DNA of 64,000 nucleotides from the NCBI GenBank assembly GCA_030447385.1, contig JAUJOY010000002.1:578081-642080 (forward strand), read 5' to 3'. Source of the DNA: Mycobacteriales bacterium. Its GTDB lineage: Bacteria; Actinomycetota; Actinomycetes; Mycobacteriales; SCTD01. A program made the position numbers and the translations under genes. Numbering within the stretch: the first letter of the stretch is position 1; every line of letters starts with the position of its first letter. The notes beneath the pieces are model-generated. The model did not search any database, had not been told where the DNA came from, and saw only the letters and a program-made list of their open reading frames with translations. Shown here piece by piece: positions 43,176 through 58,453 of the stretch.

Positions 43176-44420
43176 TCAGCCGCGGGTGGCGCCCGTCAGG
43201 AAGGTCACCAGCCGGGCCACCGCCTCCTCGGAGCGCTTCGTGCTGGGAGCGGCAGCCACAGGTTCGTGATCCGCCGGCATGCCGGCACCGTTCGGCGCCG
43301 CCTCGCTCACGACGGCGAGCGACGGGCCGGACTTGGGTGCCACGAACGACTCGCCCGCCGGAAGGGCCCCCATCAGGGCCTTCTCGTCCGCTGCCGTGAC
43401 CAGGGTCGCCTTCTCGCCCCGCAGGAACAGCACCGGCACGTCGACCTTGGCGGCCAGCGCCGGCGGGTCGATCGAGAAGATGTCCTTGAGGTACTCCTGG
43501 TTGTCCTTCGGGAAGTAGCCGGTCAGCGACGGCGGGATCGTCGCCGGCAGCGCACCCGTGGCCAGAAGGGTCCCGACGGTCGCGCGCAGTCCGGGTACGT
43601 CGCCGTGCGGAGCCCCGGCGAAGTCGTCGGCAAGAACCTCCAGCAGCGGCCGCCCGGGGGCGGAGATCAGAGCCAGGCCACGGATGCGCGGCTCGCTGGC
43701 CGCGAGCTGCATGGCGGCCAGGCCCCCCTCCTCGTGGCCGATCACGGCAAGGCGCTTGGGGTCGACCTCGGAGCGCTCGGCGAGGAAGCTCACCGCGGCG
43801 CCCGCGTCAGCGACGATGTCCTCGAACCGCAGGGGCGTCCCCGCTGGGAGCTGGCTGCGTCCCGTACCCCGCTTGTCGTAGCGCAGTGTCACGACGCCTT
43901 CCTTGACCAGAGCCTCGCTCAGATCACGGTAGAGCGTGTCGGGGGTCCCGCCCCGCGTGGCCACGCCGTCGCGGGTCGTCGGCCCGAGGCCGTTCAGGAT
44001 GACCACCCCGGCCAGACCTGCCTGCGGTGCGGCCCGGTCCGGCAGCGTGAGCGTGCCGGAGATGCCGACGTCCCCGGCCCCGTCGAACTGCACGCCACGG
44101 CTCTGGACCCCGTCCGCCGCGAGCACCGAGCGGCGGGAGGTCTCAGACCCACCGCTTCCCGTCAGGGACGTCACGGCCACCATCGCCAGCAGCACGGCGA
44201 CGGTCACTCCCGCGACGGGGAGCAGCCAGGCGGGCCGTCCGCGCGGGCTGTTGCGGCCGAGCTGCTCGGTGCAGGCGGTGCACTTGATGCCGACGCTCGT
44301 CGGCACCATGCAGTCCCGGCAGATCGAGGACGAGCACCGTGTGCAGGTCGCCACCGCAGGCTTGCGCGAGTGGCGGCCGCAGGTCCTGCTCGCCTTCTCG
44401 GTGGTGGACGCGGAAGCCAT
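43176..44420 (-). CDS. Zinc-ribbon (B-box-like) - TM - alpha/beta-hydrolase-fold protein lacking the nucleophile Ser
   Basis: CGRH-x8-CTRC-x4-CRDC-x8-KCTAC, one TM helix, and a hydrolase fold with GHEEGG in place of GHSxGG. The ATG overlaps the ftsH stop by 1 nt. Confidence 0.65.
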   Translation of the reverse strand: MASASTTEKASRTCGRHSRKPAVATCTRCSSSICRDCMVPTSVGIKCTACTEQLGRNSPRGRPAWLLPVAGVTVAVLLAMVAVTSLTGSGGSETSRRSVLAADGVQSRGVQFDGAGDVGISGTLTLPDRAAPQAGLAGVVILNGLGPTTRDGVATRGGTPDTLYRDLSEALVKEGVVTLRYDKRGTGRSQLPAGTPLRFEDIVADAGAAVSFLAERSEVDPKRLAVIGHEEGGLAAMQLAASEPRIRGLALISAPGRPLLEVLADDFAGAPHGDVPGLRATVGTLLATGALPATIPPSLTGYFPKDNQEYLKDIFSIDPPALAAKVDVPVLFLRGEKATLVTAADEKALMGALPAGESFVAPKSGPSLAVVSEAAPNGAGMPADHEPVAAAPSTKRSEEAVARLVTFLTGATRG

Positions 44421-46339
44421 CAGCTGCTGACGGCGGCGGTGACCGGCTGAGCGCCGCCGACGGGGAGCAGGAGGGCGTCCAGAACCTCGCCCTCGAGGGT
44501 CTCGGCTTCCATCAGCGCCGTGGCCAGCGCCTCGAGCACGGAGCGCTGCTCGACGAGGACGGCGCGGGCGCGTTCTGCGGAGTCGGCAAGCACCTGCTGC
44601 ACCTCGGCGTCGATCTCCGAGGCGATGCGCTCGGAGAACGCCTGCGTCATGAGCCCCTCCTTCAACGCCGCGTTCTGCAGGGACTGGGCGGTGAACGCGC
44701 CGAGCCGCGTGCCCATGCCGAACTCGGTGACCATGCGCCGCGCCAGCTGGATGGCCGCGTCGAGGTCGCCGGTGGCGCCGGTGGACAGCTCACCCGTGAC
44801 GAGCTCCTCCGCCGCCCGCCCGCCGAGGAGGGCAGCGATCCGATCGAGCAGCTGCGCGCGGGTGATGGAGGTCTGGTCGCCCTCGCTGACCCACCAGGTG
44901 AAGCCGCCGCCGTGGCCGCGCGCCACGATCGAGAGCTTGCCGACCCGGTCGGTGCCCGACAGCGCCGTGGCCACGATGGCGTGACCCGACTCGTGGAAGG
45001 CGATGCGGTGGCGGTCCTGCGGCGACAGGATCCGGGTCTTGCGCTCCGGCCCGGCCACGAGCCGCTCGATCGCCTCGGAGAAGTGGGACTGCTCGATGAT
45101 GGTCGCGCCGCGACGAGCGGCAAGCAGCGCCGCCTCGTTGACGACGTTGGCCAGGTCGGCGCCGGAGAAGCCGGCGGTCCGCTTGGCCACCTCGTCGATG
45201 TTGACATTGTCCGCGAGCGGCTTGCCGCGCGTGTGGATGCCCAGGATGCCCTTGCGGCCGTTGACGTCCGGCCGCTCGACAGCGACCCGCCGGTCGAACC
45301 GGCCCGGGCGCATCAGGGCGGAGTCGAGGATGTCGGGGCGGTTCGTCGCCGCCAGGACGACGACCCCGATCCCGGACTCGAAGCCGTCCATCTCCACCAG
45401 CAGCTGGTTCAGGGTGGCCTCGCGCTCGTCGGTGCCGCCCATCGAGTGGGTGCTGCGGCCACGACCGACTGCGTCGAGCTCATCGATGAAGACGATGCAG
45501 GGCGCAGCGGCCTTGGCCACCTTGAAGAAGTCGCGGATGCGGGCAGCGCCGACACCGACGAAGATCTCGACGAAGTCTGAGCCCGAGATGGAGAAGAAGG
45601 GCACCTCCGACTCCCCTGCGAGGCCGCGCGCGAGAAGCGTCTTGCCGCATCCGGGTGGGCCGGTGAGCAGGATGCCCTTCGGGACCGATGCGCCCATGGC
45701 GAGGAACCGGTCCGGGTTCGAGAGGTAGTCCCGGATCTCGACGAGCTCCTCGATGGCCTCGTCCACGCCGGCGACGTCCGAGAAGGTGATCTTGGCCTCC
45801 CCGGTCTCCATGCGCTTGCCCCGGGAGCGGCTGAACGCCGAGAAGCCGTCGCTGCCGCGGCCGAAGGCCAGGAACAGGATGAACAGGCCGTCGATGATGA
45901 TCAGGGCGGGCAGCAGGAGGCTGACCGGGGTGACCAGGTTCTTCAGCGGCTGCTGCTTGACCGAGTAGGCCACACCCGCGTCCTCCAGCGCGCTCGTGAG
46001 GCGCGCGAAGATGGTCTCGTTGCCCCCCGAGTAGGCGACCCAGTACTGCCCCTCGTCGTAGGTGCCCACCATCCGGTTGTCGGTCTCGAGGATCGTCGCG
46101 TCCTGGATCCGGCCCTGGCGCAGCAGCGTCGTGAACTCGTCGATGCGCAGCTCCTTCCCGGGGCTGCGCGGGTTCGACAGGTACAGCACGAGGATGTAGA
46201 AGCCGACCAGCAGCGGAAGGGCGAGGATGCAGAGGGTCAACGCCCTCTTGCGGTTGTCGCGCTTCGGGTCGTCGTCGGTGTCCTCCGTGCCGGCCGAGCC
46301 GTCCTTGTCCCGCTTGCGGGCGCTACCGAGCATGGCCAT
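44420..46339 (-). CDS. ftsH: FtsH-family AAA+ zinc metalloprotease
   Basis: Two TM helices, [46 protein letters not shown]. Confidence 0.9.
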
Positions 46340-46357
46340 GGAGCTCCTTCGGTCTTC

Positions 46358-47734
46358 TCACGGTTGGAAACGTTCAGTGCAGCTCTGGGCGATCGGAGGC
46401 TTTCCGGGTGACGCCGCATCACCGGCGGCCACCAGGACGCTGCCATCCTTCAGCAGCACCGACGCCTGCTCGCTGCGAGGGCAGGCCATGTCGCCGGCCG
46501 GTAGCCACTCCCCGATGGCGCCGGCCTCGAAGTCGAAGATCTCGGCGCTGGTGAGGGAGCTGCGAGCACCGCGTTGCACGGACTCCCCTCCCACGACGAA
46601 CACCCGTCCGTCGTTCAGCCGCGTTGCCGTGTGCCCGGTACGCGTACTGCCCATCGGGCCGACCGTGCTCCAGGTGCCGGCCCTCGAGTCGAACAGCTCC
46701 GCCGTCGCGAGGGAGATGTCCCCGGCGTCGCCTCCGGACCCTCCGCTCAGGAGGACCGCGTTGTCGCCGAGCAAGACCGCCGCGTGGTTGGTCCGGGCCC
46801 CGTTGAGGTTGCTGGACCCGACGAAGGCCTTCGCCGCCGGGTCGTAGATCTCGGTCGAGGCGAGGGGCTTCTCACTTCCGCCGGCCGCTGCCGGGCCGAG
46901 CCCGCCGGCCACGACCACCCGTCCGTCCCGCAGTCGGGTGGCGGTGTGCTCGAAGCGTCCGGTTGCCATGGAACCGGTCGACGACCAGGTCCCGGTCTTG
47001 GGGTCGAAGAGCTCTGCGGTCGGGGCTGCGGGGATCGGCTGCCCGCCCGTGGCATCCAGCGTGCTGCCCCCGGCCACCAGCACCTGGCCGCTGTTGAGCA
47101 GCGTCAGGGAGTGGCCCAACCGGGCAGCGCCCATAGGCTGCACGGCAGACCACGTGCGGGTCGCTGGGTCGTACACCTCGGCAGATGCCAGCAGCACTCC
47201 GTTAGCCAGGCCCCCGGCCACGAGGACCCGACCGTCGTTGAGCAGGGCCGCCTGATGACCGCGCCGGGGTTGCGCCAGCGGGCCGACCTCCTGCCAGGCC
47301 TGCGCGCCAGGAGTCAGGACCTCGGTGGCCCCTATCGCCAAGGCACCGACACCGCCGCCGGCGACGACCACGCTGCCGTCGCCGAGTACGAGTGCCGTCG
47401 CCGTTCCGCGGATGGCCGAGAGATCGGGGGCGTCGGTCCACACGCCGACCGGCGCGGCCGCGACCTGATCGGCCGGGTCGCTCGACGACGGCCGAAGCGC
47501 CAGGATGGCCACGAGCAGGCCGATGGCCACCAGGGCCCCGCCGATCAGGAGCAGAGGCGTGCGCGACCTCTGGGCCGCGACGCTGGGGCCCGGGACGGGG
47601 GCTGCGCACGTCGCGCACTTCAGGCCTACCTCGGTGCGGTTCATGCACTTCGGGCACAGCGGCTGGCCGCAGTCGACGCAGGTGAGCCTGGTCGCCTCAC
47701 CGTGCGCCTCGCAGCTGCGTGTCTGTGTTGCCAT
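46358..47734 (-). CDS. Zinc-ribbon (B-box-like) - TM - Kelch-repeat beta-propeller protein
   Basis: CEAH-x7-CVDC-x4-CPKC-x8-KCATC, one TM helix, then six or so repeats of the type TW....M...R.GH....L.DGRV.V.GG. Confidence 0.7.
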   Translation of the reverse strand: MATQTRSCEAHGEATRLTCVDCGQPLCPKCMNRTEVGLKCATCAAPVPGPSVAAQRSRTPLLLIGGALVAIGLLVAILALRPSSSDPADQVAAAPVGVWTDAPDLSAIRGTATALVLGDGSVVVAGGGVGALAIGATEVLTPGAQAWQEVGPLAQPRRGHQAALLNDGRVLVAGGLANGVLLASAEVYDPATRTWSAVQPMGAARLGHSLTLLNSGQVLVAGGSTLDATGGQPIPAAPTAELFDPKTGTWSSTGSMATGRFEHTATRLRDGRVVVAGGLGPAAAGGSEKPLASTEIYDPAAKAFVGSSNLNGARTNHAAVLLGDNAVLLSGGSGGDAGDISLATAELFDSRAGTWSTVGPMGSTRTGHTATRLNDGRVFVVGGESVQRGARSSLTSAEIFDFEAGAIGEWLPAGDMACPRSEQASVLLKDGSVLVAAGDAASPGKPPIAQSCTERFQP

Positions 47735-48145
47735 CTCTCGCTTTCCGCGGTGCGCCGGGCGGGCGGTATGACCCGAAGGTCGCTTCCCACCGGATATTAG
47801 TCACGGGTGTGTCCGTCATGCTCTGACGCCTGCCGCCCAGCGACGGCTGCCGCCCGGTGCCTCGTCCGGCTGAGCGCCCGCGGTCCAGGTCGAGCGATGC
47901 CTGGGCACGCTTCCGAGGCGGAGGTGGAGCATCCCCTGACGACCTCCCGCCGGTCGGCGCGCATACCAGCGGCGGGGGCTCAGAAGGCCGGTTCACAGCC
48001 TCGACGAGAACGTCAGGCGTCACACCGAAGAAGCTGTCGTCGTGCAACAACGGGCGACCATCGATATCCGCAGTCAGCGCGAATGTCGAAAGCCTAGTGC
48101 TGTCAGGGGGCTATATGTCAGCGCACTATCAGCAGAGCGCAGTTA

Positions 48146-48174
48146 TTGCCCCTCGGCGGCGGCTCCTTCATAGT
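48146..48174 (+). promoter_or_regulatory. Candidate promoter (TTGCCC-17-CATAGT) upstream of surface-protein gene A
   Basis: The hexamers and the flanking tattgcccc string are conserved at the equivalent position upstream of copy B, although the surrounding sequence has diverged. Confidence 0.25.
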
Positions 48175-48277
48175 CGTGTGCAGGTACGACCCCGGTGCTC
48201 GCTGTTTCGCGCGGCCCCGGATTCGCAGGCGCTGGAGTGCGCAGTCGGCGCCACACCACGGACTAGGAGATTTGCTG

Positions 48278-48868
48278 ATGATCGGCAAGAGGTCCCTCTC
48301 GGTGGCGTTCAGCGCCGCTGTGGCAGGCATGGTTCTGTTCGCCGGCGTCGCCTACGCCTGCACCAACCTGGCGACGCTCAACCTGAGCACCGCGAGCGGC
48401 AGCGTCGGTGACACCGTCACCGTCACCGGCTCCTCGTTCCGCACCCCGGCCAAGGCCACCGATGCGGTGATGCCGGTGTCGCTGAGCTGGAACGGCGCCG
48501 ACGGCCCGGTCCTGGCGCAGACCGTGCCGGACGCCGCGGGCAACATCTCCGCCACCTTCACCGTGCCCGAGGGTCAGGCCGGGTACTACGTGATCCTGGC
48601 CAAGCAGCTCGACGCCAAGGGTGTGGACGCCTACGGCACCCCGGCCCGCGCGGCGTTCCAGATCCTGGGCGCCAACGGTGAGTCCGTGGTGACCCCGCAG
48701 ACCAGCCAGACCCCCGCGGTCAGCGAGGGCAACGGCGCGGGCATCCTGGCCCTGACCGTCGGTCTGGGTGCGCTGGGCCTGAGCCTGTTCGCCGCGGGCT
48801 TCACCGCCTTCGCCCGCCAGGCCCGCCGCCAGGAGGTCCCGGCCACGGCCAAGGTGCGCAACAACTAG
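48278..48868 (+). CDS. Tail-anchored secreted Ig-like surface protein, copy A
   Basis: Signal peptide ending AYA/C, Ig/IPT-like module (SGSVGDTVTVTGSSF), and a C-terminal TM helix with a basic tail. Confidence 0.7.
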   Translation: MIGKRSLSVAFSAAVAGMVLFAGVAYACTNLATLNLSTASGSVGDTVTVTGSSFRTPAKATDAVMPVSLSWNGADGPVLAQTVPDAAGNISATFTVPEGQAGYYVILAKQLDAKGVDAYGTPARAAFQILGANGESVVTPQTSQTPAVSEGNGAGILALTVGLGALGLSLFAAGFTAFARQARRQEVPATAKVRNN

Positions 48869-48900
48869 CCTGCATCACCTCCCACCTCGCGGTGGGACCG

Positions 48901-48936
48901 CCACAACGGGCGCCCCTGCCGGGGCGCCCGTTGTGG
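48901..48936. terminator. 16-bp perfect stem / 4-nt loop hairpin between convergent genes
   Basis: ccacaacgggcgcccc tgcc ggggcgcccgttgtgg, preceded by a smaller cccacc/ggtggg hairpin. No U-tract. Confidence 0.55.
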
Positions 48937-48961
48937 TGTGTACCGATCGCACCGTCCAGCG

Positions 48962-49822
48962 TCAGCCGCGGGTGGAACCCCCGGTCGCCGACGCCGGTGG
49001 GACCTCGACACAGCCCGCATCCGCACCGAGCAGCCGCAGCCCGGCGCGGTCACCGATGCCGAACTCGGCCGTGGGCGACGTGTGTCCGCCCAGTTCCGGA
49101 TACATCAACTGCGCCCGGCCGCTGACGTGTCCCAGGCCGACGACATGACCGAGCTCGTGAAGGATCACGCGACCTCTGGTGACGCCGGCACCGAATCCGT
49201 CCGGCAGTGTGGCTCCGGTATTGCGGTCGATGACCGCGTCGACGTTCAGCTCGAGGACCCCGCTGACGAGGACGTCACCGGCGCGGAGCGGCCGACTGCG
49301 ACCGAGCACGATCACGTCGTCCCCGACCGGGTCCGGGCCCTCTCCCAGACCTAGCTCGGACCAGCCGACGAGAATCGGGGCCCAGCGCTGCCCGTACCGC
49401 TCGGGCTGGTAGGGCCGGCGCGCGATGACCGGCTGCTCGTCCGAGCGTCCCTCTTCGACGAAGGGGATGCCGCTCGCCTCGGACAGCCGCGCGAAGGCCG
49501 CCCGTACGTCCTCGACGCCGCCCGGCGGTGCCAGGGACGCGTTGAGCACGTAGGGGACCGGGGCACATGGGTTGAACCGGGCCGGGAAGCAGCCGTTCTC
49601 ACCGGCCGCGAACAGGAACGTGTAGCCGGTGGCCGGCAGCTGCCTGCGCTCACCGTGGGAAGCACTGCCGATGCGTCCCTCGGCGGGACAGGCCGCCGAA
49701 GGAGGCTCCGGGTCGAGGCGCTCGTCGTCGCCTCCGCCCGCGCGCACCGCGGCTGACAGGGCCACGGCGCCTGCGAGTGCCACTGCGCCCAGTGCCGCAG
49801 CCCGGCCGGAGGGCTTTGTCAC
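48962..49822 (-). CDS. Secreted metzincin (matrixin/M10-like) zinc metalloprotease
   Basis: Signal/TM N-terminus, HELGHVVGLGH, then a Met-turn (QLMYP). Confidence 0.75.
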   Translation of the reverse strand: MTKPSGRAAALGAVALAGAVALSAAVRAGGGDDERLDPEPPSAACPAEGRIGSASHGERRQLPATGYTFLFAAGENGCFPARFNPCAPVPYVLNASLAPPGGVEDVRAAFARLSEASGIPFVEEGRSDEQPVIARRPYQPERYGQRWAPILVGWSELGLGEGPDPVGDDVIVLGRSRPLRAGDVLVSGVLELNVDAVIDRNTGATLPDGFGAGVTRGRVILHELGHVVGLGHVSGRAQLMYPELGGHTSPTAEFGIGDRAGLRLLGADAGCVEVPPASATGGSTRG

Positions 49823-49920
49823 GATCGGGATCCCGACGTCACGGCCGCGCCAGACGGGAGAGGGTCACGAAGACCCCCACCCGTCTGGTTGTGCGTCATG
49901 GCAGTACGTGGCAGCGGCTC

Positions 49921-51750
49921 CTAGACAGTGCGCACGCCCGCCGCGGTCTCGCGTCGACGCACGAGCAGGGCCAGCAGGACGAACAGCAAGCCGACCACCA
50001 GCAGACCGATGACTCCCGCGAGCACGTACTTCAAGGTGCTCGACGTACCGGACTCCAGCTCCTCGAACTGCACGGCCGACATGAAGATGTCCTGGCCCTG
50101 GGTCACGGAGTCGAACATCCGGGTGTCGTCCCAGGCAACGAGTGCGTAGGCCTCGGTCGAGGCGATCCCCGGTGGGCCGTTCAGGTCGAAGTTCTGGGCG
50201 AACACCCCGATGCGGCGGTCGATCGACCTGTCGCTGATCCGGACGTTCTTCGACCAGCTGGCGCCGTTGTCGGACGAGTGCGCGTAGTAGACGTCGTTGC
50301 TGGTGATGCCGGGATCAGCCCGGGTGTCGAACCAGGCCACGTCCAGGCGACCGTCCGGCGCGATGCTCAGGTTGGGAAGGCCGCTGAAGAAGAGTTGCTT
50401 CGGGTCGTCGTCGTTGACCACCATCGGCTCGCTCCAGGTCTGTCCCCGGTCCGTCGATCGACGGTAGAAGACGTCCGCCTCACTGGCGACCTCCGGCGTC
50501 CGGGAGCCCTCGTAGACGAGGTGCAGGGTGCCGTTCTCCCCGCCTTGCGGGCTCCAGACGAGGTCCAGGCCGCCGAAGTTGTTGACGTTGTCCTTGGCGA
50601 ACGGAGTGATCTGGAAGACCTCGGTGGTCTTGCCCTGGTCGGAGGTTCGGGTGATGAAGTGAGCGGGCCGGGTCGTCCCCTTGATGTTCTGGTAGCTCGT
50701 GACCCATGCGGCGTAGGCGGTTCCCTTGTCGTCCACGGCCAACGAGGGGTTGCTGCCTCCGAAGTTCACCTGCTGGTCAGGACTCGAGGCGGGAGAACCG
50801 GGCGGTGGTGGACCGGACGCGGAGGGAGAGGGCCGCGGTGATGGAGAGGGGGAGGCGAGAGGAGACGCCGGCGCCCCTTCGTTCGGCGCAACGGGCGACG
50901 CGCTTGCGGAGGCCGTCGGGGACGCGGCAGCCGAGGCGTTCGGGGACGCAGCAGGGGAGACCCCAGGGGAGGCCCCCGGGGATGCGGCGGCGGCAGGCGC
51001 CGCGGAAGGAGTGGGGGGTACCACGACCTTGAGGGCCTCGGCGCGCACCGCTGGGTCGGCGAACTTCTGGCCGACGAGGTTGATCGGCTCCGAGAAGGTG
51101 GCCCCGCCATCGGTGGACACCGACATGACCGGGATGTTGGGCTTCCGGTTCGGGTCGGTGAGCCGGTTCTGCTGCCGCCAGCTGACGTAGAGCACGTCCT
51201 GCTCACCGCTGGTGTCCACGACGAAACCGGAGATCGGGCGGTTCGGCTCCTGCTTCTCGCCGGTCAGGCCACGGGTGTCCCGGACGATGGTCGTCTGCCA
51301 CGTCTTGCCCATGTCCTCGGAGCGTCCGACCAGCACGCTGCGGTTGGCCGCATCCTGGGTGTCCCAGCCGGCGAGGGCGTAGTAGAGCCGCTTGTCGGAC
51401 CCGAAGGCGAGCTTGCCCTGGATGGTGTGGCTGTTCGTCATCAGGCACAGCGGGTAGTTGTCCGGCGAGGGGGACGACTCGAGCGGCTCCCAGGTCTGAC
51501 CCCCGTCGAAGGACTGCATCGTCCCGCAGACCTGGGTGCGCAGGTCGACAGCCGACGCGAGGATGTGCAGCGGGTCTTCCGGGTCGACGGCGAAGTCCGG
51601 CACGCCGTAGGTCCGTGCGGGGGAGAGGTTGAACTTGGTGGCCTGGACCGGTGCGGTCACCTGCACCCGTTCCTGCGCCAGCACCTGCGTCTGGACCGGG
51701 GCCAGCGTCGCCGCCAGCAGGACACATGCCGCCACAGTCCGCTTCTTCAT
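49921..51750 (-). CDS. BNR/Asp-box repeat beta-propeller protein with C-terminal TM anchor
   Basis: Signal peptide from MKKRTVAAC. Six S-x-D-x-G-x-T-W-type boxes (SFDGGQTW, SEDMGKTW, STDGGATF, TSDQGKTT, STDRGQTW, SSDNGASW). An internal Pro/Ala/Ser-rich insert of about 85 aa. TM plus RRRE tail. Confidence 0.75.
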   Translation of the reverse strand: MKKRTVAACVLLAATLAPVQTQVLAQERVQVTAPVQATKFNLSPARTYGVPDFAVDPEDPLHILASAVDLRTQVCGTMQSFDGGQTWEPLESSPSPDNYPLCLMTNSHTIQGKLAFGSDKRLYYALAGWDTQDAANRSVLVGRSEDMGKTWQTTIVRDTRGLTGEKQEPNRPISGFVVDTSGEQDVLYVSWRQQNRLTDPNRKPNIPVMSVSTDGGATFSEPINLVGQKFADPAVRAEALKVVVPPTPSAAPAAAASPGASPGVSPAASPNASAAASPTASASASPVAPNEGAPASPLASPSPSPRPSPSASGPPPPGSPASSPDQQVNFGGSNPSLAVDDKGTAYAAWVTSYQNIKGTTRPAHFITRTSDQGKTTEVFQITPFAKDNVNNFGGLDLVWSPQGGENGTLHLVYEGSRTPEVASEADVFYRRSTDRGQTWSEPMVVNDDDPKQLFFSGLPNLSIAPDGRLDVAWFDTRADPGITSNDVYYAHSSDNGASWSKNVRISDRSIDRRIGVFAQNFDLNGPPGIASTEAYALVAWDDTRMFDSVTQGQDIFMSAVQFEELESGTSSTLKYVLAGVIGLLVVGLLFVLLALLVRRRETAAGVRTV

Positions 51751-51938
51751 CGTGTAAGTCCCCAGAGGTAGGTCATCCTGGCCGTCCGGACGGACCACCA
51801 GGTAGGTCGGGCGAGGGCTAGCGCCGAGCGCCGCTCGGCTTTCGGGCATGCGGGCGACCAGCCCGTCCGGCGCCCGCTGTCCGGGCTCCTCGCGCGCCGG
51901 GCGGGCCGGGGCATGGTCGTGCGGGTGGCGCTGGTCGG

Positions 51939-51967
51939 CTGCGCGGGCCTCCCACAGGCCCGCGCAG
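51939..51967 (-). terminator. 11-bp stem / 7-nt loop hairpin 23 nt downstream of the 51990 stop
   Basis: ctgcgcgggcc tcccaca ggcccgcgcag. Confidence 0.45.
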
Positions 51968-51989
51968 CTGCCTGCTCTGCTGGTCGGTC

Positions 51990-52574
51990 CTACTTAGCGA
52001 CTGGTGCGGTCTCCGGCTGCGGCCGCCGACGGGTGCTGAAGTAGACACCGGCACCGGCGATGAACAGCGCCACACCCGCGACCCCCACCCCGGCCAGCAC
52101 GAGGGAGCCGGTGCTGACCGGATCGCTCTCCGTCAGGCCCACCGGCCTGTCAGCCGCACCCGCGTTCAGGGGAGCCCCCAGCACCGGGGCACCTCCTGTG
52201 CCCTCGACGCTGACCAGCGCCCGGCTCGGGATGATCGCGAACTTCCCGTCAGCCGACTGCTGGGTCCCGATGAGGACGTAGTTCCCAGGGGCTGTCCCCG
52301 CCGGGATGGTGACCGTGGCATCCAGTCGGTCGCTGACCGGGTCAGGCTGGAAGGTGCCGAGGATCGGCCCGTCGAGGGCGTTGAAGCGCACGACCACCGG
52401 CAGGTCGCCGTTCCAGGAGATGCCGCTGACCTTGACCGAGCTGCCGGCCGGCACACTGCGGGGTTCGGCGGCGAGGGTGGGACCCGCGACGCAGGCCCAC
52501 GCCGCAGCGGCGAACAGCATCACAGCGGCGCCGGTGGCGGCTCCGAGAGTCACGAACTTGCTTTGGCTTCTCAT
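51990..52574 (-). CDS. Tail-anchored secreted Ig-like surface protein, diverged paralogue
   Basis: Signal peptide ending AWA/C, PAGSSVKVSGISW module, and C-terminal TM with RRR tail. Same architecture as 48278-48868. Confidence 0.7.
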   Translation of the reverse strand: MRSQSKFVTLGAATGAAVMLFAAAAWACVAGPTLAAEPRSVPAGSSVKVSGISWNGDLPVVVRFNALDGPILGTFQPDPVSDRLDATVTIPAGTAPGNYVLIGTQQSADGKFAIIPSRALVSVEGTGGAPVLGAPLNAGAADRPVGLTESDPVSTGSLVLAGVGVAGVALFIAGAGVYFSTRRRPQPETAPVAK

Positions 52575-52943
52575 TGTCTACGACCTTCCGAGCGACAGGC
52601 GCTCAATCTGGCTGGCAGTGCGAACACGTTCCAGACGGTGCACTCCATCGTCAGGACGACGTATTCCCGATGAATACCACATTTCTTCGCCGAGGGGCAC
52701 CAGGAGTGACGTGGACGCAAGGCCGCCTCCCGACTGTGCGGGCAGCGGGTCAGCCGACGACAGGCAGGATTGCGCAGCCGGAACCCGCTGTGCAGCAGGA
52801 AGTTCGCACCGCGACGACACGGGTTCCGCTGCACGCACAGCCAGCCGCGGGCGGTCCGGTGCCCACCAGCTTCCGTGATGATTGCCGAAAGCTGAAGGAT
52901 TCTGGCCATTGCTCGTCAGAACACTACAGTCCGGGCACATCTA

Positions 52944-52971
52944 TTGCCCCGGGCCACGGCACCCTGACAAT
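52944..52971 (+). promoter_or_regulatory. Candidate promoter (TTGCCC-16-GACAAT) upstream of surface-protein gene B
   Basis: See the matching element at 48146-48174. Confidence 0.25.
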
Positions 52972-53068
52972 GTGGCGGGCGGTAAGCCGCTCGTGCAGAT
53001 CTTCCGCCGGCGGTCCCACTGCACGCTGAGGCTTCCGCCCCGGCGTTCCACGATCCGGAGGCACGCTG

Positions 53069-53659
53069 ATGATCGGCAAGAGGTCCCTCTCGGTGGCGTT
53101 CAGCGCCGCTGTGGCAGGCATGGTTCTGTTCGCCGGCGTCGCCTACGCCTGCACCAACCTGGCGACGCTCAACCTGAGCACCGCGAGCGGCAGCGTCGGT
53201 GACACCGTCACCGTCACCGGCTCCTCGTTCCGCACCCCGGCCAAGGCCACCGATGCGGTGATGCCGGTGTCGCTGAGCTGGAACGGCGCCGACGGCCCGG
53301 TCCTGGCGCAGACCGTGCCGGACGCCGCGGGCAACATCTCCGCCACCTTCACCGTGCCCGAGGGTCAGGCCGGGTACTACGTGATCCTGGCCAAGCAGCT
53401 CGACGCCAAGGGTGTGGACGCCTACGGCACCCCGGCCCGCGCGGCGTTCCAGATCCTGGGCGCCAACGGTGAGTCCGTGGTGACCCCGCAGACCAGCCAG
53501 ACCCCCGCGGTCAGCGAGGGCAACGGCGCGGGCATCCTGGCCCTGACCGTCGGTCTGGGTGCGCTGGGCCTGAGCCTGTTCGCCGCGGGCTTCACCGCCT
53601 TCGCCCGCCAGGCCCGCCGCCAGGAGGTCCCGGCCACGGCCAAGGTGCGCAACAACTAG
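53069..53659 (+). CDS. Tail-anchored secreted Ig-like surface protein, copy B (identical protein to copy A)
   Basis: The 196-aa translation is identical to 48278-48868. Confidence 0.7.
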   Translation: MIGKRSLSVAFSAAVAGMVLFAGVAYACTNLATLNLSTASGSVGDTVTVTGSSFRTPAKATDAVMPVSLSWNGADGPVLAQTVPDAAGNISATFTVPEGQAGYYVILAKQLDAKGVDAYGTPARAAFQILGANGESVVTPQTSQTPAVSEGNGAGILALTVGLGALGLSLFAAGFTAFARQARRQEVPATAKVRNN

Positions 53660-53691
53660 CCTGCATCACCTCCCACCTCGCGGTGGGACCG

Positions 53692-53727
53692 CCACAACGG
53701 GCGCCCCTGCCGGGGCGTCCGTTGTGG
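53692..53727 (+). terminator. Hairpin, copy of 48901-48936 with one G-U wobble
   Basis: ccacaacgggcgcccc tgcc ggggcgtccgttgtgg. Confidence 0.5.
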
Positions 53728-53784
53728 CGCGCCCGGAACCGGTCCGGATCTCGTCACGTCGTCCCTGTCGGAGGCAGAACACCC

Positions 53785-55437
53785 ATGAGCGAGCATCCAC
53801 AGGCGGTACGGCGGACCCGCTGGGTTCTGGTGTCCGCCCTCACCCTGCTCGCCAGTGGCTGCTCCGGGAACGCGGAGCCACGGCCCCCGGCTCCGATCGC
53901 GAGGGCCGCCGAGCAGCAGCTGCGCGTCGCGGTCGGCGACGACGAGTTCCTGCAGGGCAACCCGCCCGTCGCCAACCTCGGTCTTTTGGCCGAGGGCCTC
54001 AACCCGGGCATCTTCGAGACGCTCACCGTGCTCACGCCGAGTTTCGGGCTCCGGCCCGGTCTCGCGGTGCGATGGCGTGCCGAGTCGCCCACCGAGTGGC
54101 GGTTCGAGCTCCGGCCGGAGGTTCGCTTCCACGACGGCTCACCTCTGACGGCTGCTGCCGTCGTGCAGTCCCTGCGCCGCGTCACCGGCGGCACGAACGA
54201 CACGCCCCGCGGAGAGGTGGCGCTGCGTCCGACCCGTCCTCGCGGCCTGGAACCGGACTCGGCGACGGCGCTCGAGGACCTGGTCGTGCGCATCGTCCTG
54301 TCCGAGCCGAACCTTCGGCTCGCCGAGCAGCTGGCGGGGCCCCGTACCGCCGTCTCGGCGGTGGGGACAGTCCCCGGCGACGGGAAGACGCGGGAGACCA
54401 CGCCGATCGGCACCGGCCCCTTTCGCTTCTCGAGCTACCGCCCGGGAGTCGACCTCGAGGTTCAGGCCTTCCCGGACCACTGGGACGGGCCGCCGGAGCT
54501 CGAGGGGATCACCTTCCGGTTCGGGCCGGAGAAGGACGCCAGCCTGCTGCTCGCCACGGGCAAGGTCGACGCGGTGGGTTACGTCGCGGCCGACGTGCTG
54601 GCCAACGTGAAGGACGGGGAGGACCGGCAGGTGCTGTCGACCCCCGCCAGGGCCACCTTCCTGCTCCTCAACCGCGAAGGGGTGGCGGAGTGGTCCACGT
54701 TGAAGGAGGACCCTGTGCGTGCGGCGGTGGCGCAGGCCATCGACCGAAGCGCGATAGCGGAGAAGGCGTGGCCGGGCCACGGCAGGCCGAGCAGCTCCCT
54801 CATCCCGCCGATCGTGCTGGGTTCGGCGGCGGAGAGCGTACGGCTGGCCCGGCCCGACCCTGCGGCCGCGGGGAAGCTGCTCGACCAGGCGGGGTGGCGG
54901 CCGGGCGCGGACGGGATGCGGGCGCGGAACGGGCGCCCGCTGGTGCTCGACATCCTCGTACGCCAGCCCGGGGAGGGTCTGCCGGCGGCGGCAGCTCTCC
55001 TGCGCGACCAGCTGCGCACAGTCGGGATCGGGACGTCCACCGTCGTCGGGCTCCCCGGAGACCCCACCCCGCTTCAGCGCGTCAACTCGGCGTCCTTCGA
55101 CCTGTTCCTGGATTTGCGTGGGCAGGACGACGCCAACCCGTGCGCGCTGTGTCGGTTCTTCTCCATCCGCCCAGGTGCCGACCTCCAGGTGGCCGGGGTG
55201 GTGGGCGGGGGACCGAAGGCCGACGCGCTGTTCGACCAGGTGCACTCCGCGCCCTCGATCGACTCCGCCCGGCGCGTGGCGGCCGACCTGATGCAGGTGG
55301 CTGTGGTCGAGGAGAACGTCGCTGTGCCGCTGGCCGCGTTGTCCAACGTGTGGCTGCTGTCACCTCAGGTGGAGGGCTTCGAAGCAGCGGCGATCGGTGG
55401 CACCCAGCAGTGGCATCGGGTCTTCCGGTCCCGGTGA
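53785..55437 (+). CDS. ABC-type family-5 (peptide/nickel) solute-binding lipoprotein, no adjacent permease or ATPase
   Basis: GGAGG RBS, LASGC lipobox, WRFELRPEVRFHDGSPLTAAAV typical of SBP_bac_5. Confidence 0.75.
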   Translation: MSEHPQAVRRTRWVLVSALTLLASGCSGNAEPRPPAPIARAAEQQLRVAVGDDEFLQGNPPVANLGLLAEGLNPGIFETLTVLTPSFGLRPGLAVRWRAESPTEWRFELRPEVRFHDGSPLTAAAVVQSLRRVTGGTNDTPRGEVALRPTRPRGLEPDSATALEDLVVRIVLSEPNLRLAEQLAGPRTAVSAVGTVPGDGKTRETTPIGTGPFRFSSYRPGVDLEVQAFPDHWDGPPELEGITFRFGPEKDASLLLATGKVDAVGYVAADVLANVKDGEDRQVLSTPARATFLLLNREGVAEWSTLKEDPVRAAVAQAIDRSAIAEKAWPGHGRPSSSLIPPIVLGSAAESVRLARPDPAAAGKLLDQAGWRPGADGMRARNGRPLVLDILVRQPGEGLPAAAALLRDQLRTVGIGTSTVVGLPGDPTPLQRVNSASFDLFLDLRGQDDANPCALCRFFSIRPGADLQVAGVVGGGPKADALFDQVHSAPSIDSARRVAADLMQVAVVEENVAVPLAALSNVWLLSPQVEGFEAAAIGGTQQWHRVFRSR

Positions 55438-55462: not shown

Positions 55463-55930
55463 CTAGGGCTGGGCCCCGACGCGGCTGGGCGCGGCGGTGC
55501 GAGCCCGGAAGAGCAGGCACCAGCCGACACCGAGCAGCAGCACTGCCAGCCCTGGCGTGCTGTGGTGCAGCGTCGCCCCCCAGGGCGCCTCGCCGCGGGT
55601 GGCCTGCAGGACCAGGGGAAGGTGCGTCGCGTCCATCCAGAGGCCCGCCACCAGGATGACCAGCCCTACACCGAACAGCGGTCCCATCGTGGTCGCGCGG
55701 CGCCCGATCAGCAGCGCGAGCAAGGAGACCACGATGACCAGCGTCCCAGGCACCACGTGGTCGACGAACTCCAGCTGGTCGCCGCGGGGGCCGAGCTCGA
55801 GACGAGGTCCGCCGTACCGGGGCAGCAGCGCCCACGTACCGACCAGGACTCCGAGACCCGCCAGCATCGGGACGGCGGCCAGGCGCCGCCGGGCCAGCGC
55901 CGCATCGGGTGCACTCGTGCTCTTGGTCAT
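55463..55930 (-). CDS. Small four-TM membrane protein
   Basis: Hydrophobic segments. ATGA overlap with the upstream BNR gene. Confidence 0.5.
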   Translation of the reverse strand: MTKSTSAPDAALARRRLAAVPMLAGLGVLVGTWALLPRYGGPRLELGPRGDQLEFVDHVVPGTLVIVVSLLALLIGRRATTMGPLFGVGLVILVAGLWMDATHLPLVLQATRGEAPWGATLHHSTPGLAVLLLGVGWCLLFRARTAAPSRVGAQP

Positions 55931-57459
55931 GCCTCGGCTCCTGTCGGCTGCGTGCGCGGTCGCGCCTGCTTGCGTATCAGCGTAAGGACGGCCACCACCG
56001 CAACCAGGCCGGACAGCAGGATCAGGACGGGGGCCGTACGGCTCAGCGGGCCTCCCGAGCCGAGCGTCACCGTCGCCGCGAAGACGTCCTGTCGGCCGGT
56101 GTTCACGTCGCCCAGCCGCGTGTCGGTCCAGCTGGCGAGTGCTTCCCTCTCGGTGCTCACCAGGCCGAGCCGGGTGCCGAAGTCGGTGCCGTACTCCGGC
56201 CCGAAGGTGGGACCGACGGCCGAGCTGAACGGCTGCGAGGACACCCGCACGTTGGTGAACGTGTCGCGGCCGTTGTCGGACGAGGCGAGGTAAACCTCCG
56301 TCTGCACATCGGCGGGATCGCCGCGGCGGTCGTAGAACAGCACATCCACCCGGCCGTCGGGCGCAACAGCGACGCGCGGGAGGTACTGGCTCGTGCCGTC
56401 TGCCATGGCGTTGTCGTTCACCCTCGTGGCATCGGACCAGGTGCCCCCGCCGTCCTCCGAGCGGCGCAGGAAGACGTCTTCGTTGCCGTTGCGGCCGTCG
56501 GCCCAGGCGACGGAGAGGGAACCGTCCGGGCCGGCCGCGAGCGAGGGGTAGTCCGGCAGGAAGACGAGGAAGCGGCGCGCGGGGACGAAGTTCGACTCGA
56601 TCTCCACGCCCTGGCCGAAGGTCCTGCCGCCGTCGGTGGACCGGGTGACCACCAGCGCGTACGGGTCCTCGGCTACCGGTCCCTGCAGCCCGCCGAAGTT
56701 GCGCCGGTCGTTCTTGAAGTCCTGGTAGAGGACGACGACGTCGCCACCGGAGTCGATGACCGGACTGGCCGCGCCGACCCGCTCGCGGGAGGCATCGCTG
56801 ACCGCCACCGGAGTGGAGAAGGTGCGTCCGCCGTCCCCCGACCGAGCGGTGACGACGCGGGCCGGGCCGACCAGCTGGTTGAGGCCCACAGCCTCGGCGT
56901 CCAGCCAGACGAGGTGGACGCTGCCAGCGTCGTCCACCACGACGCGCGGTTGGAAGGAGAGCTCACCGGCGACGCGGACAGGCTGCTCGAGGGTGCGACC
57001 ACCATCTGTGGAGCGAGCGAGCCAGAGGGCCGCCGGCGTGTTGCCGCGCCCCTGCAGAGAGAGGTAGACGACGTACAAGGTGCCGTCCGGCCCGAAGGCG
57101 ACGTCGGCCGCGAAGGGGCAGGGCTTCTGCTCGGGCGAGGCGGCACACGGCTCGGTGCCGGCGGGCAGGGGGAGCGAGGTCGGCTGCCAGGTGGCACCAC
57201 CGTCCGCGCTCCACTCGAGCAGCGCGGAAAAGCCCGGCCGGTCGATGCGGTGCGCGACGACGGCGCGACGGCGATCGTCCGGATCGGTCGCCACGGTCGG
57301 AGAGTTGTTCACCGAGATGACGCCCGGCGGGTTCACGAGGACGTTGGCGCCGACGGTGGTCTCGCCCCCGGTCCGGTAGAGCGTCGCCGCCGCCACGAGC
57401 GCGGCCACCAACCCGAGGCACATCGCCGCGAGACCCACCGCGGTCTTCCGGTCTGTCAT
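55927..57459 (-). CDS. BNR/Asp-box repeat beta-propeller protein with N- and C-terminal TM segments
   Basis: SADGGATW, STDGGRTL, SGDGGRTF, STDGGRTF, SEDGGGTW, SSDNGRDT. Start taken at MTDRKTAVG. Confidence 0.75.
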   Translation of the reverse strand: MTDRKTAVGLAAMCLGLVAALVAAATLYRTGGETTVGANVLVNPPGVISVNNSPTVATDPDDRRRAVVAHRIDRPGFSALLEWSADGGATWQPTSLPLPAGTEPCAASPEQKPCPFAADVAFGPDGTLYVVYLSLQGRGNTPAALWLARSTDGGRTLEQPVRVAGELSFQPRVVVDDAGSVHLVWLDAEAVGLNQLVGPARVVTARSGDGGRTFSTPVAVSDASRERVGAASPVIDSGGDVVVLYQDFKNDRRNFGGLQGPVAEDPYALVVTRSTDGGRTFGQGVEIESNFVPARRFLVFLPDYPSLAAGPDGSLSVAWADGRNGNEDVFLRRSEDGGGTWSDATRVNDNAMADGTSQYLPRVAVAPDGRVDVLFYDRRGDPADVQTEVYLASSDNGRDTFTNVRVSSQPFSSAVGPTFGPEYGTDFGTRLGLVSTEREALASWTDTRLGDVNTGRQDVFAATVTLGSGGPLSRTAPVLILLSGLVAVVAVLTLIRKQARPRTQPTGAEA

Positions 57460-57646
57460 CGGCGCAGATACTAGGTGCAGGGGTGCCGGCAGAGCGCTAG
57501 ATGCGCTGTGCACCTAGTGATCTCGTGCTCCTGGCTTCGATATGCTCCGTGACCAGCGAGAACCGGAAGCGAGGAGCCACAGGGTGATGTCGACCCGGCG
57601 TGACGGGCGAACCGCGGGCCGACCGGATGCCTCGGGCGGCGGGGTG

Positions 57647-58453
57647 ATGCAGATGCGGCGGACCAACGGCGGTGCCCTGCGGGTGGGTGTCGTCGGCAGC
57701 GGCGGAGTCGGCAAGTCGATGATCTCGGCGAGCCTGGCGCGCATCCTCGCGCGGCGCGGACGTTCCGTGCTCGCTGTGGATCTCGACCCCAATCCCGGGC
57801 TGGCGTACAGCCTCGGCCTGGCTCCCAACGACGACGGGCTGCCGGCGGAGAGCACGGTGCGCGTGGAGAAGGGCGGCCTGTACGGCTGGGCCCCGGCGCC
57901 GGAGGTGGACCTCACGACAGCGGCCCTGACGCTGAGCCGGGTGGCGCCCGATGGTGTGCGCTACCTGAGCCCCGGGAAGATCGATGCCTCCGGGGACGCC
58001 AAGGGCGAGGTCAAGAGGTGCCTGGGCACGGTCCGCCAGATGGTGGACCTCCTAGAGGCCCCCTGGGACGTCGTGGCGGACCTCGAGGCGGGGACCACGA
58101 CGCCCTACGAGGGCTACGCGCGGTTCGCCGACACGATGGTCGTCGTGGCCAGTGGTGCCTGGCGATCGTGCGTGGCCGCGCGTCGGCTGCTGGCGCTGTT
58201 CCCCGACATGCCCGCGGTGGTGGTGGCCACCAAGTCGACACCCGGAGCAAGCGACGCGTCCCGCTGGGGACTGCCCGTACGACACACCATCCCGTTCGAC
58301 CCCGACGTCCTCGAGGCCGAGCGCCACGGTCGTGCTCCGATCGACGTCTGCCCTGATGGTCCCGCTCTGTCGGCAGTGGCAGCACTGGCCGACCTGCTCC
58401 TGGAGACCCGCCCCATGACAGTGTCCGCTCCCCGCGCCGCGGCCCACCGATGA
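57647..58453 (+). CDS. CooC/MinD-type ATPase homologue with degenerate Walker A (signature Lys replaced)
   Basis: VVGSGGVGKS instead of xKGGxGK[ST]; VADLEAG switch region. Start approximate. Confidence 0.6.
   Translation: MQMRRTNGGALRVGVVGSGGVGKSMISASLARILARRGRSVLAVDLDPNPGLAYSLGLAPNDDGLPAESTVRVEKGGLYGWAPAPEVDLTTAALTLSRVAPDGVRYLSPGKIDASGDAKGEVKRCLGTVRQMVDLLEAPWDVVADLEAGTTTPYEGYARFADTMVVVASGAWRSCVAARRLLALFPDMPAVVVATKSTPGASDASRWGLPVRHTIPFDPDVLEAERHGRAPIDVCPDGPALSAVAALADLLLETRPMTVSAPRAAAHR

What the first reader, a model, noticed from the sequence alone, without database searches (positions are those of the whole stretch)
48274..53727. Two 663-bp identical gene cassettes flank a 4.1-kb metzincin/BNR/paralogue segment
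48274-48936 and 53065-53727 (offset 4791 bp) are identical apart from one c/t difference that I could see, in the hairpin stem. Identity starts only 4 nt before the ATG and ends exactly at the foot of the 16-bp terminator hairpin. What has been homogenised is precisely CDS plus terminator, not the promoter. This looks like gene conversion between dispersed paralogues. It also creates an A-B-A structure able to delete or amplify the intervening metzincin, BNR and paralogue genes.
Basis: seen in the sequence. Interest (0 to 1): 0.55.

Follow-up and report, generated by a model that had tools for sequence, protein, structure and literature searches.

The report
Twin genes kept identical by conversion
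Two copies of a small, uncharacterised cell-surface protein gene lie 4.8 kb apart and are identical letter for letter, although their promoters and leader regions have drifted apart; this is ordinary gene conversion (as in the duplicated tuf genes), here in a gene family of uncultured actinobacteria where it recurs in several genomes.

Summary
Window 48274-48936 and 53065-53727 are 662/663 identical, and the flanks fall to random similarity at once. Each copy holds one 196-aa gene (A1 48278-48868, A2 53069-53659) plus a 3' UTR with a strong hairpin. The protein has a signal/TM helix, an Ig-like domain and a C-terminal TM helix, and matches no Pfam or NCBIfam family.

The gene-conversion reading is well supported:
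- Both copies have the family's own promoter motif and a ribosome-binding site in register, so A1 is not a promoterless cassette.
- The leader regions are otherwise unalignable, yet 0 of 134 four-fold sites differ.
- A 96%-identical relative carries the A1-type leader with a coding sequence 6% diverged. An 89% relative carries the A2-type flanks. Both loci therefore predate the homogenisation.
- In other metagenome-assembled genomes (MAGs), copies at syntenic, orthologous positions are 100% identical within a genome and 93.6% identical between genomes. Partial mosaic tracts occur, with similar edges near the ATG (-16 to -24); their exact runs stop at the stop codon.

The kind is known (tuf, psbA, amoCAB); the family is new. 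Deletion or amplification of the intervening genes is plausible but not shown. The residual risk is assembly or polishing having homogenised copies that are really only near-identical.

The parts
48274..48936 (+). Repeat copy 1 (663 bp): last 4 nt of the leader, A1 coding sequence, 3' UTR and hairpin
   Evidence: 662/663 identical to 53065-53727 with no indels
53065..53727 (+). Repeat copy 2 (663 bp)
48278..48868 (+). Gene A1, 196 aa: N-terminal signal/TM helix, invariant Cys28, Ig-like beta-sandwich, C-terminal TM helix. This is the derived locus, beside the Kelch gene and convergent with the metzincin
   Evidence: Translation and GC3 of 0.95. No Pfam or NCBIfam family. AlphaFold model with pLDDT 84-90 over residues 31-130. 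Only generic Ig-like fold matches. The A1-type leader is conserved in relative L098
53069..53659 (+). Gene A2, identical protein. This is the ancestral (syntenic) locus: divergent from the paralogue and followed by the SBP gene
   Evidence: Same order (paralogue(-) A(+) SBP(+) BNR(-) CbiA CbiA) in L008 and L013; A followed by SBP, BNR(-), CbiA, CbiA also in L001. A2-type flanks in L099
48899..48938 (+). 3' hairpin of A1 (18-bp stem, loop TGCC, no U-tract), lying between the convergent A1 and metzincin genes
   Evidence: RNA fold of 48866-48945: -54.4 kcal/mol, z -6.2. Hairpins of the same design follow A in relatives. The canonical terminator scan finds nothing because there is no T-run
53690..53729 (+). 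3' hairpin of A2. It differs from the A1 hairpin by two C/T changes (53718, 53728) that keep G-C/G-U pairing
48880..48897 (+). Small first hairpin in the 3' UTR (7-bp stem); same in copy 2 at 53671-53688
48144..48174 (+). Promoter-like element of A1: TATTGC (TTGCCC as the -35), 17-nt spacer, CATAGT; 134 nt before the ATG
   Evidence: The TATTG motif lies 80-175 nt upstream of the gene in 36 of 66 family loci, against 0.008 expected per locus. There are only 4 TATTGC in the 64-kb window, two of them here and at A2
52942..52971 (+). Promoter-like element of A2: TATTGC ... GACAAT; 127 nt before the ATG
48175..48273 (+). A1 leader (5' UTR), not alignable with the A2 leader except for the GGAG at 48266-48269
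   Evidence: The last 49 nt are 39/49 identical to relative L098
52972..53064 (+). A2 leader (5' UTR). Its last ~20 nt are identical in relative L099
48962..49822 (-). Metzincin (HELGHxxGLGH) in the intervening segment
   Evidence: Pfam PF00413, E 4.8e-6
49921..51849 (-). BNR/sialidase-like propeller protein with a low-complexity linker and a C-terminal TM helix
   Evidence: Pfam BNR_2, BNR, BNR_4
51990..52574 (-). Paralogue of A (194 aa, 31% identity, same architecture), divergent from A2. It is too diverged to take part in the conversion
53784..55437 (+). Solute-binding-protein gene downstream of A2 (unique right flank)
   Evidence: Translation. Orthologues carry PF00496 SBP_bac_5
46358..47734 (-). 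Kelch propeller protein with an N-terminal B-box zinc finger, divergent from A1 (unique left flank)

Best explanation
A1 and A2 are two old, dispersed paralogues of one gene for a small membrane-anchored Ig-like surface protein. Each has its own promoter and leader. Recent RecA-type interlocus gene conversion, most likely repeated over time, copied one onto the other. The copied stretch runs from just upstream of the start codon to the terminator hairpin.

The tract cannot extend further because the flanks have diverged too far to pair. The only sequence that stays similar enough to recombine is the part under selection: the coding sequence and the RNA hairpin. The outcome is one protein made from two differently controlled genes.

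Shown: the identity, its limits, the homologous but diverged promoters, the age of both loci, and the same behaviour in relatives. Inferred: the recombination mechanism, a weak hint that A2 was the donor, and the benefit (dosage or separate regulation of an identical product). A by-product is a pair of 663-bp direct repeats. These could delete or amplify the metzincin/BNR/paralogue segment by unequal crossing-over; this is also inferred.
For: 1. 662/663 identity with no indels and a sharp drop at both ends. At four-fold degenerate sites, 0 of 134 differ between A1 and A2, against 36-52% differing versus orthologues of 74-82% aa identity. Purifying selection alone cannot explain this.

2. A1 is a complete old gene, not an inserted cassette.
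- The family promoter motif TATTG(C) lies 80-175 nt upstream in 36 of 66 loci (0.008 expected per locus) and is present before both A1 and A2.
- GGAG is in register in both copies.
- The rest of the two leaders is as dissimilar (local score z about 2.5) as leaders of orthologues from distant MAGs.

3. Both loci predate the homogenisation.
- Contig L098 (protein 96% identical) carries the A1-type leader (39/49 nt). Its coding sequence is 553/588 identical, with 21 of 131 four-fold sites differing.
- Contig L099 (89%) carries the A2-type ribosome-binding region, downstream flank and SBP gene.
- Contigs L089 and L092 (metzincin 86% and 80%) have an A-type hairpin convergent with the metzincin.
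- A2's position is shared with L001, L008 and L013.

4. The family does this elsewhere.
- In MAG CAVYKB, L027 and L028 are 100% identical over 594 nt. In MAG JAHFUP, L021, L023 and L024 are 100% identical. Between the two genomes the figure is 93.6%.
- Yet L027/L023 and L028/L021 are syntenic over 10-12 kb of flank.
- Mosaic tracts occur: L020 versus L027 has 29 differences in the first 277 nt, then 332 identical.
- Exact runs start at -16 to -24 and end at the stop codon to +5, followed by a conserved hairpin.
- In one JGI sample, two loci (L003, L091) share 62 identical nt of 3' UTR plus hairpin and then diverge.

5. The two hairpin differences are both C/T changes that keep G-C/G-U pairing. 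The hairpin is therefore constrained as RNA, which explains the residual similarity just past the tract.

6. Composition of the intervening segment (69.5% GC) matches its surroundings.
Against: - No reads are available, so the assembly cannot be checked. In a de Bruijn-graph or heavily polished assembly, two copies that really differ by a few per cent can be written out as identical. The only surviving difference lies 10 nt from the repeat end, which is where such collapse would leave one.
- The identical copies in MAG JAHFUP come from a short-read assembly and carry the same caveat.
- No genome of the same species was found, so the second copy in the nearest lineage (L098) could not be examined.
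- The window pair shows no mosaic, so a single whole-gene replacement and many small conversions cannot be told apart.
- The direction of transfer rests on one base (-4 G shared with the A2 type; L098 has A).
Confidence: 0.85

Rival explanations
1. Assembly or polishing artefact. Two copies exist but are really only about 95-99% identical, and graph collapse or consensus polishing made them identical. In the extreme case, one copy is a mis-join.
For: The one remaining difference sits 10 nt from the repeat end, where graph-based collapse would preserve it. Several relatives' contigs stop at or in this gene, which shows it troubles assemblers. A second near-identical repeat in the window differs by homopolymer-length indels, so the sequence is not error-free.
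Against: Both junctions on each side are unique, and each is confirmed by separate relatives' contigs: A1-type leader in L098, A2-type flanks in L099. Two loci are therefore real. A MAG with 0.2-0.56-Mb contigs (CAVYKB; contig naming suggests long reads) shows 100% identity between copies on different contigs. Even at a true 97% identity the biological conclusion of recent conversion would stand, because the leaders are unalignable.
Confidence: 0.08
2. Recent duplicative insertion of a promoterless 'coding sequence plus hairpin' cassette into an unrelated site. The mechanism would be integron-like or some other site-specific or illegitimate event, with no earlier paralogue at the A1 site.
For: The identical block starts 4 nt before the ATG and ends at a hairpin, which looks superficially like a cassette with a 3' recombination site. 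Deeper relatives L013 and L090 have no A copy between the hydrolase and the metzincin.
Against: A1 has the family-specific promoter motif at the family-typical distance, and a ribosome-binding site in register. Its leader is conserved in L098, whose coding sequence is 6% diverged. The hairpin is a plain 18-bp RNA-type stem whose variants keep G-U pairing, not an attC-like imperfect site. The same edges are seen between copies at loci that are syntenic across species.
Confidence: 0.05
3. Old duplication with identity maintained by purifying selection alone, without sequence exchange.
For: The protein family is very conserved: 60-96% identity across orders, with many invariant columns.
Against: 0 of 134 four-fold degenerate sites differ, and the non-coding 3' UTR is identical. 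The same sites differ by 16% from the closest relative and by 36-52% from others.
Confidence: 0.01

Closest known systems
tufA/tufB concerted evolution by RecA-dependent gene conversion (Salmonella and E. coli; recurrent across bacteria). Sources: PMC5485169, PMC6053082
   Same: Two dispersed copies of one gene in different genomic contexts, each with its own upstream region, kept (near-)identical by conversion tracts of a few hundred nt confined to the homologous gene. Paralogues within a genome are closer than syntenic orthologues.
   Different: tuf encodes a universal, highly expressed translation factor and its copies usually lie in inverted orientation far apart. Here the gene encodes an uncharacterised surface protein, the copies are direct repeats only 4.8 kb apart, and some relatives carry 3-6 copies. 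RecA dependence is not testable here.
Recurrent concerted evolution of psbA/psbD (cyanobacteria) and amoCAB/hao (Nitrosomonadales). Source: PMC6053082
   Same: Multi-copy genes for membrane-associated proteins, with identical copies at syntenic loci and differing regulation. That survey detected them by the same criterion used here: paralogues cluster by genome while flanks show orthology.
   Different: Those genes have known functions in core energy metabolism. The present family has no known function and is so far seen only in uncultured Actinomycetota and a few Dormibacterota-labelled MAGs.
Integron gene cassettes (promoterless ORF plus attC hairpin)
   Same: A unit that begins just before a start codon and ends at an inverted repeat.
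   Different: Both copies here have their own conserved promoter and leader. The hairpin is a perfect RNA-type stem conserved as a structure downstream of all family members. No attC-like features were seen. The window was not searched for an integrase.
Actinobacterial hairpin-only ('I-shaped') intrinsic terminators (from my own knowledge of high-GC Gram-positive terminators)
   Same: A long GC-rich stem directly after the gene without a U-tract, placed between convergent genes (A1/metzincin) or before the next gene (A2/SBP).
   Different: Termination activity is not tested here; the hairpin could equally act as an mRNA-stabilising 3' end.

Membership tests
Interlocus gene conversion / concerted evolution of bacterial paralogues (tuf-type) | Paralogues within a genome are more similar to each other than to orthologues in related genomes, including at synonymous sites | tested here: met
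   A1/A2: 0 of 134 four-fold sites differ. Against L098, 21 of 131 differ; against other relatives, 36-52%. CAVYKB and JAHFUP copies are 100% identical within a genome and 93.6% between genomes
Interlocus gene conversion / concerted evolution of bacterial paralogues (tuf-type) | The duplication predates the divergence of the compared genomes (each locus has its own syntenic counterpart elsewhere) | tested here: met
   A1-type leader in L098; A2-type flanks in L099 and in L001, L008, L013. L027/L023 and L028/L021 are syntenic over 10-12 kb. Caveat: no single relative shows both window loci on one contig
Interlocus gene conversion / concerted evolution of bacterial paralogues (tuf-type) | An abrupt switch from identity to homologous but strongly diverged flanks | tested here: met
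   promoter motif and ribosome-binding site retained, the rest unalignable. The hairpin's 3' arm shows C/T changes at the edge
Interlocus gene conversion / concerted evolution of bacterial paralogues (tuf-type) | Mosaic (partial) conversion tracts | tested here: inconclusive
   Not visible in the window pair, where the whole unit is identical. Clear in relatives: L020/L027, L042/L050, L042/L045
Interlocus gene conversion / concerted evolution of bacterial paralogues (tuf-type) | Dependence on homologous recombination (RecA) | not testable with these tools
   Needs genetics in a cultured host
Integron gene cassette | Promoterless ORF that depends on an external Pc promoter | tested here: not met
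   Family-specific promoter motif and leader upstream of both copies
Integron gene cassette | attC site (imperfect inverted repeat with extrahelical bases and a GTTRRRY core) and a nearby intI integrase | tested here: not met
   The hairpin is a perfect 16-18-bp stem with a 4-nt loop. Its end, GTTGTGG, does not fit GTTRRRY. The window was not searched for an integrase
Canonical (L-shaped) intrinsic terminator | GC-rich hairpin followed by a U-tract | tested here: not met
   Strong hairpin but no T-run. The consensus scan finds none at these sites. It works like a hairpin-only terminator or stabiliser at most
Any curated protein family for protein A (Pfam-A, NCBIfam, PDB sequences) | Score above the curated cut-off, or a significant sequence match | tested here: not met
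   No Pfam hit. NCBIfam gives only sub-threshold hits. The best PDB profile match has E = 0.066. The fold search returns only generic Ig-like domains

The most novel reading that the evidence does not exclude
Protein A is the repeated building block, or a stoichiometric partner, of an undescribed cell-envelope structure of uncultured Actinomycetota. It is encoded beside a conserved set of genes: B-box/Kelch, FtsH-like, B-box/hydrolase, BNR-propeller and paired CbiA/MinD-like ATPases. [quoted passage not shown] Selection would favour identical subunits expressed from differently regulated promoters, and the A copies would double as recombination pivots that reshuffle the surrounding envelope genes.
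Probability: 0.3. Interest if true: 0.55.

Novelty: new member of a known kind. Interest (0 to 1): 0.33.

Why it matters
On its own this is a clean, well-delimited example of a textbook process, so its value is mostly as a worked case. The tract edges can be read to the base. They sit where homology ends (the ribosome-binding region) and where an RNA hairpin is under structural constraint.

It matters somewhat more in three ways:
- The same behaviour recurs in distant genomes of an uncharacterised, very conserved, multi-copy surface-protein family. By analogy with known cases (tuf, psbA, amoCAB), this marks the protein as probably abundant or part of a stable complex.
- It warns that these genes will break or be collapsed in short-read MAG assemblies.
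- The two diverged leaders give natural tags for measuring how two identical genes are used differently.

Tried and rejected
- **Protein A function.** Pfam and NCBIfam searches gave nothing usable, nor did a PDB profile search. The structure prediction and PDB fold search returned only generic Ig-like domains such as macroglobulin MG, CARDB and CopC/PmoD-like. No function is assigned.
- **RNA families.** An Rfam scan of 47000-54500 gave one chance-level hit on the hairpin, E = 0.74.
- **Consensus promoter and terminator scan.** It found no sigma-70-type promoter and no T-tailed terminator at the relevant sites. The promoter motif came from comparing relatives instead.
- **Metagenome scan for close relatives.** Only 4 loci, none with both copies.
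- **Contig ends as evidence of repeats.** By my reading of the table, about 17 of 80 genome-scan contigs stop in or within 70 nt of the gene. With many contigs of 2-10 kb this is not clearly above chance, so I do not rely on it.
- **L090.** I first took the 57-aa ORF at its contig end for a second A copy. It is the hydrolase C-terminus. Likewise the end ORF of L093 is the SBP C-terminus.
- **Downstream flanks.** The local match (score 34) is a 37-nt GC-rich stretch inside unrelated genes, and I treated it as chance.
- **Integron-cassette idea.** Rejected because both copies have promoters.
- **Literature.** I found no paper on this family.
Full report
**1. The observation**

An ungapped comparison at offset 4791 shows that 48274-48936 and 53065-53727 are identical at 662 of 663 positions with no indels. 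On both sides the match rate drops at once to the roughly 30% expected for unrelated 71%-GC DNA. The single difference is C 48927 versus T 53718.

Each copy contains one ORF (A1 48278-48868, A2 53069-53659; 196 aa, GC3 0.95), a 30-nt spacer with a small hairpin, and a large hairpin. Identity begins 4 nt before the ATG.

Folding as RNA shows the large stem is 18 bp (48899-48938). The base just after the identical block is a second C/T difference. Both differences only exchange G-C for G-U. The hairpin is therefore constrained as RNA, and the true end of the copied tract may lie before 48927. Upstream, GGAG is conserved in register 4 nt outside the block.

**2. What lies there**

Protein A has an N-terminal signal/TM helix ending in an invariant Cys, an Ig-like sandwich (pLDDT 84-90) and a C-terminal TM helix. 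It matches no Pfam, NCBIfam or PDB sequence family, and its fold matches are generic Ig-like domains.

Between the copies, all on the minus strand, lie a metzincin, a BNR propeller protein with a C-terminal anchor, and a 194-aa paralogue of A (31% identity).

- To the left: hydrolase, FtsH-like and Kelch genes (minus strand).
- To the right: an SBP gene, a second BNR gene (minus strand), two CbiA-type ATPase genes and an MFS gene.

The GC content of the intervening segment matches its surroundings.

**3. The family**

A has 543 relatives at E <= 0.001 (the 120 listed are 60-96% identical). Almost all come from metagenomes and MAGs labelled Acidimicrobiia/Acidimicrobiales, Actinomycetota, Mycobacteriales, Propionibacteriales or Egibacteraceae, with a few Dormibacterota. 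No isolate appeared in the lists returned by either the protein search or the genome scan. The exact protein is not in the collection.

The neighbourhood is conserved across these genomes: Kelch-FtsH-hydrolase, A, BNR, and CbiA twice.

**4. Is A1 a promoterless cassette? No.**

Aligning the upstream regions of relatives reveals a conserved TATTG(C) element followed about 17 nt later by a -10-like hexamer. It lies 80-175 nt before the start codon in 36 of 66 loci, where 0.008 per locus is expected by chance.

Both A1 (48144) and A2 (52942) have it. The 64-kb window holds only four TATTGC in total. Apart from this element and the ribosome-binding site, the two leaders are not alignable. Their local similarity (z about 2.5) is no greater than between leaders of orthologues from distant MAGs. 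The duplicated unit therefore once included the promoter, and the flanks have since diverged to saturation.

**5. Are both loci older than the identity? Yes.**

- A2's context (paralogue divergent upstream; SBP, BNR and two CbiA genes downstream) is shared with L008 and L013, and its downstream part with L001.
- Contig L099 (protein 89% identical) has the A2-type ribosome-binding region, downstream flank and SBP start.
- Contig L098 (96% identical) has the A1-type leader (39 of 49 nt). Its coding sequence differs from the window's at 35 of 588 nt and at 21 of 131 four-fold sites.
- Contigs L089 and L092 (metzincin 86% and 80% identical) carry an A-type hairpin convergent with the metzincin, as at A1.
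- Deeper relatives L013 and L090 lack A1.

A1 therefore arose after the split from the L013/L090 lineages, but well before the window's two copies became identical.

At 134 four-fold sites A1 and A2 show no difference. Orthologues of 74-82% aa identity differ at 36-52% of such sites. Only sequence exchange explains this.

**6. The family does the same elsewhere**

In MAG CAVYKB (contigs of 0.2-0.56 Mb), copies L027 and L028 on different contigs are 100% identical over 594 nt. In MAG JAHFUP, L021, L023 and L024 are 100% identical. Between the two genomes these copies are 93.6% identical. Yet L027 is syntenic with L023, and L028 with L021, over 10-12 kb of flank at 77-86% identity. This is the standard signature of concerted evolution, and the criterion used in PMC6053082.

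Partial tracts are also seen. L020 versus L027 has 29 differences in the first 277 nt, followed by 332 identical nt.

The upstream edge recurs. Exact runs start 16-24 nt before the ATG. Downstream they stop at the stop codon to +5, and a conserved hairpin follows after a variable spacer. In the window, by contrast, identity continues through the 3' UTR to the hairpin. In one JGI sample two different loci (L003, L091) share 62 identical nt of 3' UTR, hairpin and 6 more nt, then become unrelated.

**7. Mechanism**

The best reading is homologous (RecA-type) interlocus gene conversion, as worked out for tufA/tufB. There, tracts of a few hundred nt spread from a break until homology or processivity ends (PMC5485169).

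Here the homologous block is the part of the unit that selection keeps similar: the coding sequence and the RNA hairpin. The neutral leader and downstream DNA have diverged too far to pair. This explains why the identity runs from just before the ATG to the foot of the hairpin. One base (-4 G in A1 and in A2-type loci, A in L098) hints that A2 was the donor; this is weak evidence. The product is one protein expressed from two promoters in different contexts.

**8. Deletion and amplification**

Direct repeats of 663 bp are adequate substrates for unequal crossing-over, so the A-B-A layout should generate deletions and tandem amplifications of the metzincin/BNR/paralogue segment at low frequency. 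This is established knowledge, not tested here.

Relatives show much rearrangement around A copies:
- The Kelch-FtsH-hydrolase block is inverted relative to L001, L003 and L013.
- The SBP gene follows the first A in L091/L093 but the second A in the window.
- Inverted A copies sit at both ends of contig L063.

None of these is a simple deletion or amplification product.

**9. Rivals**

- **Assembly collapse or polishing** cannot be excluded without reads. The lone difference lies 10 nt from the repeat end, where collapse would leave one. Against this, both loci are independently attested by relatives' contigs, and even 97% true identity would still require conversion.
- **Cassette insertion** is contradicted by the promoter and leader evidence.
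- **Selection alone** is contradicted by the synonymous sites.

**10. Verdict**

The process is well known. What is new is its occurrence in this uncharacterised family of uncultured actinobacteria, where it recurs in at least two clades. Interest is modest.

Noticed in passing
window 16507-18441 and 19071-21004: A second near-identical direct repeat: a 1936-bp alignment at 99.8%. It covers the 3' 1.9 kb of two tandem genes for secreted proteins with PVVE repeats and a right-handed beta-helix domain (PF13229). The repeat starts inside the PVVE repeat and ends 15 nt after the stop codon. The copies differ by one substitution and three single-base indels (two in homopolymer runs) that break the reading frames. 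These are either sequencing errors or pseudogenisation. It may be another conversion or partial tandem duplication.
   Followed up: partly
window 43176-47734 and 55927-59226; loci L001, L003, L004, L011-L014, L016, L025, L034 and others: A gene neighbourhood conserved across many Actinomycetota MAGs. It comprises a Kelch propeller and an alpha/beta hydrolase (each with an N-terminal B-box-type zinc finger), an FtsH-like protease, BNR propellers with a C-terminal TM helix, two adjacent CbiA/MinD-like ATPases, often a metzincin, and protein A. Its function is unknown; it may be an envelope system.
   Followed up: partly
upstream of A genes, e.g. L001, L008, L013, L017, L021, L025, L064 (about 140-200 nt before the ATG): Besides the TATTGC promoter element, many relatives carry CTAGATG-type partial palindromes just upstream, which look like an operator. 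The window copies have a related GTCAG..CACTA..CAG stretch (48117-48133 and 52913-52929).
   Followed up: no
L028 8965-9557 versus L038 8966-9558; L021 4060-4667 versus L064 2243-2856: The paralogue gene that sits divergently upstream of A is itself 91-95% identical between different loci of one genome, while the DNA between it and A does not align. The paralogue family may therefore also evolve in concert.
   Followed up: no
L091, L093 versus window 48274-55437; L013, L090: The SBP gene follows the first A copy (A, SBP, metzincin, BNR, paralogue, A) in two relatives but the second A copy in the window. The Kelch-FtsH-hydrolase block is inverted in the window relative to L001, L003 and L013. 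No simple recombination between A copies accounts for these differences.
   Followed up: partly
L063 1-498 (-) and 7480-7974 (+): A contig with an A copy truncated by each end, in inverted orientation. This suggests an invertible or repeat-bounded 7-kb segment in that Acidimicrobiales MAG.
   Followed up: no
protein A residues 25-37 (window 48350-48388): The motif A-[FYMW]-A-C-T-N-L-A-T-L-N-L-S directly after the signal helix is nearly invariant across the family, and the only Cys is conserved in the paralogue too. It could be an atypical lipobox or an intermolecular link. A protein anchored at both ends would be unusual.
   Followed up: no
window 4293-4629 versus 21311-21648: A 342-bp inverted match at 72% identity between two distant parts of the window.
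   Followed up: no
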